A stretch of DNA of 64,000 nt, from NCBI GenBank assembly GCA_951804945.1, contig OX638153.1:42160001-42224000 (forward strand), given 5' to 3'. The notes below the pieces were generated by a model, which did not search any database, was not told the origin of the DNA, and saw only the letters and a program-made list of their open reading frames with translations. The position numbers were made by a program, and so were the translations under genes. The stretch comes from Podarcis cretensis (taxonomy: Eukaryota). The stretch's first letter is position 1. The number at the start of each line of letters is the position of its first letter. This document shows positions 16,077 to 16,222 of this stretch, one piece after another.

Positions 16077-16222
16077 CAGTGGCGTAGCGTGGGGGGTGCG
16101 GGGGGGCCGGCCGCACCGGGCGCAACATCTGGGGGTTAGGGTTAGGGGGCGCAAATCCATGGGTTAGGGGGCGCAAATTACTTGCCTTGCCCCGGGTGCA
16201 GACAACCCACGCTACGCCACTG
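16077..16222 (+). mobile_element. hAT-type MITE with internal telomeric TTAGGG repeats (copy 1, 146 bp)
   Basis: 17-bp TIRs CAGTGGCGTAGCGTGGG / CCCACGCTACGCCACTG; perfect 8-bp TSD CCCCGCGC; second copy at 61394. Confidence 0.92.

What the first reader, a model, noticed from the sequence alone, without database searches (positions are those of the whole stretch)
16077..16222. Young hAT-type MITE that carries telomeric TTAGGG repeats in a copy-number-variable 22-bp unit
Seen: two near-identical elements (16077-16222 and 61394-61563) with 17-bp TIRs and different perfect 8-bp TSDs (CCCCGCGC, GTACCATG), so they are independent recent insertions. The core reads GGGGGTTAGGGTTAGGGGGCGCAAATCCA(T/C)GGGTTAGGGGGCGCAAAT. 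Copy 1 has 3 TTAGGG hexamers; copy 2 has 4, owing to one extra GGGTTAGGGGGCGCAAATCCAY unit. Established: 8-bp TSDs are typical of hAT; TTAGGG is bound by TRF1/TRF2, HMBOX1 and ZBTB48; G3+ tracts with TTA loops can form G-quadruplexes. Inference: a DNA-transposon family may be dispersing telomere-protein sites and G4 modules genome-wide and could seed interstitial telomere-like satellites. Two copies in 64 kb suggests high copy number. I do not recognise it as a named family.
Basis: partly seen in the sequence, partly recalled or inferred. Interest (0 to 1): 0.75.

Follow-up and report, generated by a model that had tools for sequence, protein, structure and literature searches.

The report
Lizard mini-transposon with G-rich internal repeat
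This is a young, ordinary non-coding cut-and-paste mini-transposon of a wall lizard or close relative, and its few telomere-like hexamers look like copies of one chance motif, too short and too broken up to be a proper telomere-protein site.

Summary
Two copies (146 and 170 bp) have 17-bp TIRs, different perfect 8-bp TSDs and 3 vs 4 TTAGGG, and differ by one 22-bp unit. They lie around an EBF/COE gene. A translated copy sits in a Podarcis muralis UniRef model, so the host is probably a lacertid. It is a non-autonomous hAT element, not Buster-type by TSD. The telomere reading is weak. The 22-bp unit is a diverged duplicate of the element's own left subterminal segment (19 of 23 columns), so the hexamers probably descend from one motif plus a 6-bp slip. 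Each copy holds one TRF half-site, where a TRF1 dimer needs two, and one HMBOX1 core; the extra unit adds neither. The window is not TTAGGG-enriched (32 vs 39 expected). G4 folding in vitro is plausible, but only with long loops, and the best G4 score lies in the non-telomeric end. MITE-borne tandem repeats are known. Dfam/Repbase status and genome-wide copy number could not be tested. New member of a known kind; low interest.

The parts
16077..16222 (+). MITE copy 1 (146 bp, GC 0.68, CpG o/e 0.75), about 12.7 kb upstream of the EBF/COE start codon
16069..16076 (.). 5' target-site duplication of copy 1 (CCCCGCGC)
16223..16230 (.). 3' target-site duplication of copy 1
16077..16093 (+). left TIR of copy 1, starts CAGTG (fits the hAT terminal motif YARNG)
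16206..16222 (-). right TIR of copy 1 (17 of 17)
16082..16106 (+). G6/G7 runs at the left end; best 25-nt G4Hunter window of copy 1 (2.2); holds no TTAGGG
16113..16125 (+). left subterminal 13-mer, inverted partner of 16187-16199 (11 of 13); candidate transposase BED-domain sites (binding inferred)
16187..16199 (-). right subterminal 13-mer
16118..16140 (+). 23-bp 'proto-unit', a diverged homologue of the 22-bp unit (19 of 23 columns)
16133..16147 (+). longest telomere-like tract (15 bp, one head-to-tail hexamer pair); holds the only YTAGGGTTR and only AGGGT of copy 1
16147..16168 (+). 22-bp unit of copy 1, in GGGCGCAA register
61394..61563 (+). MITE copy 2 (170 bp, GC 0.66, CpG o/e 0.67 against 0.23 and 0.37 in its 1-kb flanks); probably intronic in the EBF/COE gene (inferred)
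61386..61393 (.). 5' TSD of copy 2 (GTACCATG)
61564..61571 (.). 3' TSD of copy 2
61394..61410 (+). left TIR of copy 2
61547..61563 (-). right TIR of copy 2 (16 of 17)
61458..61519 (+). 22-bp tandem array, 2.8 copies, 97% matches
29564..29719 (+). context: coding exon of an EBF/COE transcription-factor gene (Pfam COE1_DBD, E 9e-30); the next exon is near 30184-30252

Best explanation
A young non-autonomous hAT DNA transposon (MITE) of a lacertid lizard. Shown: TIRs, 8-bp TSDs, independent insertions, no coding capacity, unit-number variation, presence in Podarcis muralis. Inferred from hAT biology: a transposase made by an autonomous partner elsewhere binds the TIRs and the repeated GC-rich subterminal motif (GGGYGC, 5 times in copy 1 and 6 in copy 2, plus an inverted 13-mer at both ends), cuts the element out and inserts it with an 8-bp staggered cut. 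The interior is mostly these subterminal repeats. An old duplication of a 22-23-bp segment made the unit, and slippage or template switching during gap repair changes the unit number. The TTAGGG lies in the spacer between two GGGCGC motifs and was multiplied passively; one further 6-bp slip made the only head-to-tail pair. The hexamers are most likely passengers. The G-rich strand can probably fold a long-loop G4 as an oligonucleotide, but no function is implied.
For: Anatomy. 8-bp TSD and YARNG ends define lizard hATs (PMC3014272, passages). The unit is homologous to the left subterminal segment (19 of 23; 0 of 2000 shuffles reached the score, but the segments were chosen after seeing the shared GGGCGCAA). 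hAT ends carry short subterminal repeats bound by BED domains, including a quasi-palindromic pair (PMC10368747, passages). One half-site per copy whatever the unit number against two needed by TRF1 dimers. The P. muralis copy has a Pro>His change inside the second hexamer of the head-to-tail pair. An older MITE with similar ends at 3092-3232 also has a G-rich left end, an internal 19-bp duplication and a long-loop G4 motif, but no TTAGGG. hATs are 2.3% of the Darevskia genome and common near developmental genes (PMC9498476, passages).
Against: A shuffled unit contains TTAGGG only 1.4-3.7% of the time, so a chance origin is possible but not likely a priori. The head-to-tail pair does make a complete Myb site and a POT1 10-mer, and the Myb half-site survives the inferred change in the P. 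muralis copy. TRF1/2 helix 3 contacts TTxGG directly, which every unit contains (3 and 4 per copy). ZBTB48 binds through one zinc finger and tolerates variants (PMC5452029, passages). Only 3 copies were seen, one of them only as protein. No autonomous partner was found (0 of 116 window frames of 85 aa or more matched a transposase family). Subterminal binding is untested.
Confidence: 0.75

Rival explanations
1. Telomerase-seeded origin: a short telomeric tract was added at a double-strand break when the MITE arose by internal deletion or gap repair, and was later duplicated with its flank. The hexamers would be truly telomeric in origin but still without function.
For: The 15-bp tract is a perfect telomere phase and lies between the left and right ends. 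Short ITSs are thought to be inserted by telomerase during break repair, and squamates keep somatic telomerase activity (PMC4529230, passages). Chance for the hexamer is only 1.4-3.7%.
Against: The hexamer-bearing spacer is shared by the diverged proto-unit and the 22-bp unit, so one hexamer predates the duplications and the pair is explained by a 6-bp slip. No autonomous parent was available for comparison.
Confidence: 0.12
2. One reading: the family spreads working docking sites for telomere proteins (TRF2, ZBTB48, HMBOX1) and G4 modules, and so affects nearby genes such as this EBF/COE gene.
For: One full Myb site plus a long-loop G4 motif per copy; ViennaRNA places a three-tetrad G4 on the core of copy 1 (-42.0 vs -39.5 kcal/mol). 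Human TRF2 binds many extra-telomeric G4 sites, possibly using a G4 and flanking duplex together (PMC6879327, passages). ZBTB48 is a promoter-binding activator.
Against: There is no bipartite TRF site and the extra unit adds no site. Neither copy matches G3 with loops 1-7, which 15 other places in the window do; the copies are 2 of 28 long-loop matches and 2 of 35 G4Hunter >=2.0 regions. In one search TRF2 peaks were not enriched for the most relaxed motif (G3L1-15) in one of the two tests. No binding data exist for lizards in what was read.
Confidence: 0.08
3. Satellite seed: the 22-bp unit is on its way to a long array, as Xstir arose from a Xenopus MITE, and such arrays give the pericentromeric telomere-like FISH signals of lacertids.
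For: Unit number varies. MITE-derived satellites are known (PMC6947457, Table 1 and passages). Most lacertids tested show centromeric or pericentromeric telomere-like signals (PMC7290949, passages).
Against: All 3 copies seen have only 2 or 3 units. The unit has only a 9-bp match to telomeric DNA, which is unlikely to hold an 18-mer telomere probe (inference). Signals within chromosome arms were reported only for Timon tangitanus and Lacerta media.
Confidence: 0.05

Closest known systems
Non-autonomous hAT families of Anolis carolinensis (hAT-N1 to N8_AC; PMC3014272, passages incl. part of Table 1)
   Same: 8-bp TSD, YARNG ends, short non-coding body (hAT-N1_AC is 135 bp), low divergence, orphan families with no known parent
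   Different: The TIR start of this element was not found in the paper's main text (0 hits); supplements could not be read. TSDs here lack the central TA of the Charlie-related families.
hAT Ac or Tip groups (PMC3942097, passages)
   Same: 8-bp TSD, short TIR, MITE derivatives. A likeness of the TIR start to vertebrate hAT-Tip100 elements is recalled, not tested.
   Different: The groups are defined by transposase phylogeny; no transposase was available here.
MITEs carrying tandem repeats: Xstir of Xenopus, HindIII and BIV160 of bivalves, GTCY-bearing insect MITEs (PMC6947457, Table 1)
   Same: An internal repeat rides on a MITE and varies in copy number
   Different: Here only 2-3 units were seen and no free satellite is shown; the unit includes a TTAGGG hexamer.
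Short interstitial telomeric sequences of squamates (PMC4529230, passages)
   Same: Telomere-phase DNA away from chromosome ends, often near mobile elements
   Different: The longest tract here is 15 bp; the other hexamers are 22 bp apart; spread is by transposition.
Telomere-bearing elements (TBE1) of the ciliate Oxytricha (recalled, no call)
   Same: A DNA transposon that carries host telomeric sequence
   Different: TBEs are autonomous Tc1/mariner-type elements with telomeric repeats at the tips; here the hexamers are internal in a hAT MITE.

Membership tests
hAT superfamily (non-autonomous) | 8-bp target-site duplication | tested here: met
   2 of 2 copies perfect and different; criterion
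hAT superfamily (non-autonomous) | Short TIR (10-25 bp) starting YARNG | tested here: met
   17 bp, starts CAGTG; criterion
hAT superfamily (non-autonomous) | Subterminal repeats bound by the transposase BED domain | tested here: inconclusive
   Repeated GGGYGC and an inverted 13-mer are present; binding cannot be tested; concept
hAT superfamily (non-autonomous) | Autonomous partner with the same TIRs and a hAT transposase | not testable with these tools
   None in the window (0 of 116 frames); no eukaryote genome collection was available
MITE (a structural label, not a taxon) | Short, non-coding, TIR-bounded | tested here: met
   146 and 170 bp; no Pfam match for the open frames that cross the copies; no Rfam match
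MITE (a structural label, not a taxon) | High copy number | tested here: inconclusive
   2 copies in 61.8 kb of called bases: 95% Poisson range 3.9-117 per Mb, biased upward because the window was flagged for having two; a third copy in P. muralis
MITE (a structural label, not a taxon) | AT-rich interior (listed as typical, not obligatory) | tested here: not met
   GC 0.66-0.68
hAT Buster/Charlie group | TSD consensus nnnTAnnn | tested here: not met
   0 of 2 TSDs have a central TA, whereas 2 of 2 of the window's 136-bp family do; criterion from PMC3517528, passages
hAT Ac or Tip group | Transposase phylogeny | not testable with these tools
   No transposase found
TRF1/TRF2 dimer binding site | Two YTAGGGTTR half-sites | tested here: not met
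   1 per copy in both copies; criterion, stated there for TRF1
HMBOX1/HOT1 site | AGGGT core in telomeric phase | tested here: inconclusive
   1 per copy, none added by the extra unit; criterion
Interstitial telomeric sequence | Head-to-tail (TTAGGG)n tract | tested here: inconclusive
   Longest tract is 15 bp with two whole hexamers; no length threshold was read
Canonical G-quadruplex motif | Four G3+ runs with loops of 1-7 nt | tested here: not met
   0 of 15 window matches lie inside the copies; both match only with loops up to 12
Named Dfam/Repbase family | Match to a library consensus | not testable with these tools
   No such library is offered

The most novel reading that the evidence does not exclude
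A recently amplified lacertid hAT MITE, present in thousands to tens of thousands of copies, has placed a combined Myb-site-plus-G4 module next to genes across the genome. It recruits TRF2 or ZBTB48 away from telomeres, linking telomere length to gene expression in a lineage-specific way, and its 22-bp unit sometimes expands into the telomere-like pericentromeric and W-chromosome arrays seen in lacertids.
Probability: 0.07. Interest if true: 0.7.

Novelty: new member of a known kind. Interest (0 to 1): 0.24.

Why it matters
On the best reading it matters little. It is one of several short hAT and Tc1/mariner-type elements in this window, useful for repeat annotation, as an insertion-polymorphism marker, and as a warning that it can enter gene models (it forms residues 23-70 of a P. 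muralis 'elongation factor 1-delta' entry). It could also slightly inflate short-motif telomere counts in lizards (inference). If the novel case held, it would be a DNA transposon wiring telomere proteins into a vertebrate regulatory network, and it would give a testable origin for the telomere-like internal signals of lacertid chromosomes.

Tried and rejected
Relatives in prokaryotic collections: no blastn match in plasmids or phages; no exact match for two patterns in GTDB genomes. Viral and metagenome contig collections stayed unchecked. Rfam: 0 matches over the window and 0 at E<=1 around copy 1, so a structured-RNA reading was dropped. Protein searches with translated frames, meant to harvest more copies: 1 hit among 8 candidates; 0 of 109 candidates; no candidates; 2 weak, unnamed, multi-stretch hits (E 2.5e-4 and 7.2e-4) that were not used. 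A cluster look-up for the P. muralis protein could not be made, so its cluster members are unknown. Transposase in the window: 0 of 116 frames (2 matched COE1_DBD). Segmental duplication or assembly artefact was rejected because the flanks do not align and the TSDs differ. SINE or LTR origin was rejected on TIR plus 8-bp TSD. Buster group was rejected on TSD. Literature: nine searches for a prior description gave no title or abstract start describing this element; most were seen as listings only, and the library lacks most subscription papers. The TRF1/TRF2 ChIP paper on ITSs (10.1038/cr.2011.40) is not held and was not read. Supplements of PMC9498476 and PMC3014272 could not be read; they might hold a matching consensus.

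Full report
Observation. Copy 1 (16077-16222, 146 bp) has a perfect 17-bp TIR and the TSD CCCCGCGC. Copy 2 (61394-61563, 170 bp) has a 16-of-17 TIR and the TSD GTACCATG. The TIR pattern occurs 4 times against 0.03 expected. The flanks are unrelated, so these are independent insertions. The copies differ by one 22-bp unit, a 2-bp indel in the left G-run and 2 substitutions in 146 aligned columns. Copy 2 keeps a CpG o/e of 0.67 inside flanks of 0.23 and 0.37, which fits a young insertion. TTAGGG counts are 3 and 4. No other copy is in the window. The window as a whole has 32 TTAGGG against 39 expected.

Host and context. The window holds exons of an EBF/COE transcription-factor gene on the + strand (Pfam COE1_DBD; start codon read at 28972; that it is EBF3 is my recall). 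Copy 1 lies about 12.7 kb upstream in CpG-rich DNA. Copy 2 is probably in a long intron (inferred from recalled EBF gene structure). The open minus-strand frame of copy 1 found 1 protein among 8 candidates: UniRef A0A670JSC9, a Podarcis muralis 'elongation factor 1-delta' model, 33 of 37 identical. Residues 23-70 of that model read through a whole element. The family is therefore present in P. muralis, and the window is probably from a lacertid (inference). That third copy has the shorter, copy-1-type unit number. Of its 4 changes in the first 41 codons, two match alleles seen in copy 2, one is a CpG-type change, and one (Pro>His) falls in the second hexamer of the head-to-tail pair. If that is a single-base change, it breaks the hexamer but leaves the YTAGGGTTR half-site. 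I take the model to be a mis-annotation or a decayed gene; this was not tested.

Class. An 8-bp TSD and YARNG ends define lizard hAT families (PMC3014272, abstract and passages). Buster-group TSDs have a central TA (PMC3517528, passages). This element's TSDs do not (0 of 2), while the window's other 136-bp hAT MITE family does (2 of 2). Ac versus Tip (PMC3942097, passages) needs a transposase, and none of 116 window frames of 85 aa or more matched one. hATs make up 2.3% of the 1.46-Gb Darevskia assembly, half of its repeats are unclassified, and hATs are common in Hox loci (PMC9498476, passages). An undescribed-looking hAT MITE near a developmental gene is therefore expected. Two copies in 61.8 kb give 3.9-117 per Mb, or about 6,000-175,000 per 1.5 Gb, biased upward by how the window was picked.

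Where the hexamers come from. In the register of the repeated octamer GGGCGCAA, the interior is a short array with spacings 29, 22 in copy 1 and 29, 22, 22 in copy 2. The first 23 bases of the 29-bp segment align to the 22-bp unit at 19 of 23 columns (0 of 2000 shuffles reached the score; the segments were chosen after seeing the shared octamer). The remaining 6 bases are a slip of the hexamer. The simplest history is one GGGTTAGG spacer, an old 22-23-bp duplication, a 6-bp slip, and recent unit gain or loss. The motif GGGYGC recurs 5 and 6 times from end to end, and an inverted 13-mer (11 of 13) sits just inside both TIRs. This resembles the subterminal repeats that hAT BED domains bind, including a quasi-palindromic pair in Hermes (PMC10368747, passages); binding here is inferred. 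So three or four hexamers are one event, not several. That one hexamer has a 1.4-3.7% chance in a shuffled unit and 14% in a shuffled element. This is uncommon but unremarkable across the many G-rich families of a genome, and it leaves telomerase seeding open (PMC4529230, passages). An older MITE with similar ends at 3092-3232 has a G-rich left end, a 19-bp internal duplication and a long-loop G4 motif but no TTAGGG.

Telomere proteins. TRF1 dimers need two YTAGGGTTR motifs, and removing one of two Myb sites abolished binding of the TRF2-containing complex on probes lacking a full POT1 site (PMC3241663, passages). Each copy has exactly one such motif, and these are the only 2 in the window. 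HMBOX1 reads AGGGT (PMC3680732, passages), also present once per copy. The variable unit adds neither. On the other side, every unit has TTxGG, which TRF helix 3 contacts directly. The pair includes a POT1 10-mer. ZBTB48 binds through one finger and tolerates variants (PMC5452029, passages). Human TRF2 occupies many extra-telomeric G4 sites (PMC6879327, passages). Weak or G4-assisted binding is not excluded. All these data are mammalian.

G-quadruplex. Neither copy matches G3 with loops of 1-7 (15 matches elsewhere in the window, one just outside copy 1). Both match with loops up to 12, as 2 of 28. The cores score 1.74 and 1.50 by G4Hunter, while the best 25-nt windows (2.2, 2.32) are the non-telomeric left ends, 2 of 35 regions at 2.0 or more. 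ViennaRNA with DNA parameters places a three-tetrad G4 (loops 3, 3, 12) on the core of copy 1, 2.5 kcal/mol better than without; in copy 2 it places only two-tetrad forms. Folding as an oligonucleotide is plausible; a role in chromatin is not shown.

Satellite seeding. MITE-derived satellites and microsatellites are known (PMC6947457, Table 1 and passages). Most lacertids tested show centromeric or pericentromeric telomere-probe signals, and some W chromosomes are enriched (PMC7290949, passages). That makes the idea testable, but the 3 copies seen have only 2-3 units.

Novelty. Nine paper searches (mostly listings) showed no description of this element or of a vertebrate MITE with internal telomeric hexamers. 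The TIR start was absent from the library's full texts and from the Anolis survey's main text. This is weak evidence. Dfam, Repbase and lizard genomes could not be searched, two sets of supplements could not be read, and de novo repeat libraries of Podarcis probably hold the element under an automatic name (recall). No relatives were found in plasmids, phages or GTDB genomes; viral and metagenome contigs stayed unchecked.

Verdict. A real, young lacertid hAT MITE with a variable internal unit: a new member of a known kind. The telomere-protein story is possible but has little support from the sequence (about 0.07). Interest 0.24.

Noticed in passing
UniRef A0A670JSC9 (P0001), residues 23-70: A Podarcis muralis 'elongation factor 1-delta' protein model contains a whole antisense translation of this MITE; probably a mis-annotated or decayed gene model, though exonisation is not excluded.
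   Followed up: partly
3092-3232: Older hAT-like MITE with ends resembling this family (about 14-bp TIR, 2 mismatches; 8-bp TSD matching at 6 of 8), a G-rich left end and a 19-bp internal duplication, without TTAGGG.
   Followed up: partly
56775-56910 and 63274-63409: Two copies (about 83% alike) of a 136-bp, nearly palindromic hAT MITE with perfect 8-bp TSDs centred on TA, so Buster/Charlie-type.
   Followed up: partly
3472-3717, 11292-11501 (-), 58211-58415: Three copies (84-85% alike) of a 200-250-bp Tc1/mariner-like MITE (class recalled from its TA-flanked ends).
   Followed up: no
58404-58651 and 60250-60497: 248-nt arms, 97% inverted, 1.6 kb apart, with no Pfam-matching frame between them. 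The left arm starts inside the end of the MITE at 58211-58415, so it may be an inverted duplication or foldback rather than a transposon.
   Followed up: partly
2596-2775 and 3884-4063: A 180-nt direct repeat, 100% identical, 1288 bp apart; a recent local duplication or an assembly artefact.
   Followed up: no
55990-56310: A further element with an internal inverted repeat, probably a Tc1/mariner-type MITE (class recalled).
   Followed up: no
27947-28345 (-): A 133-aa open frame antisense and upstream of the EBF/COE start, with no Pfam match; possibly incidental or part of a divergent transcript.
   Followed up: partly
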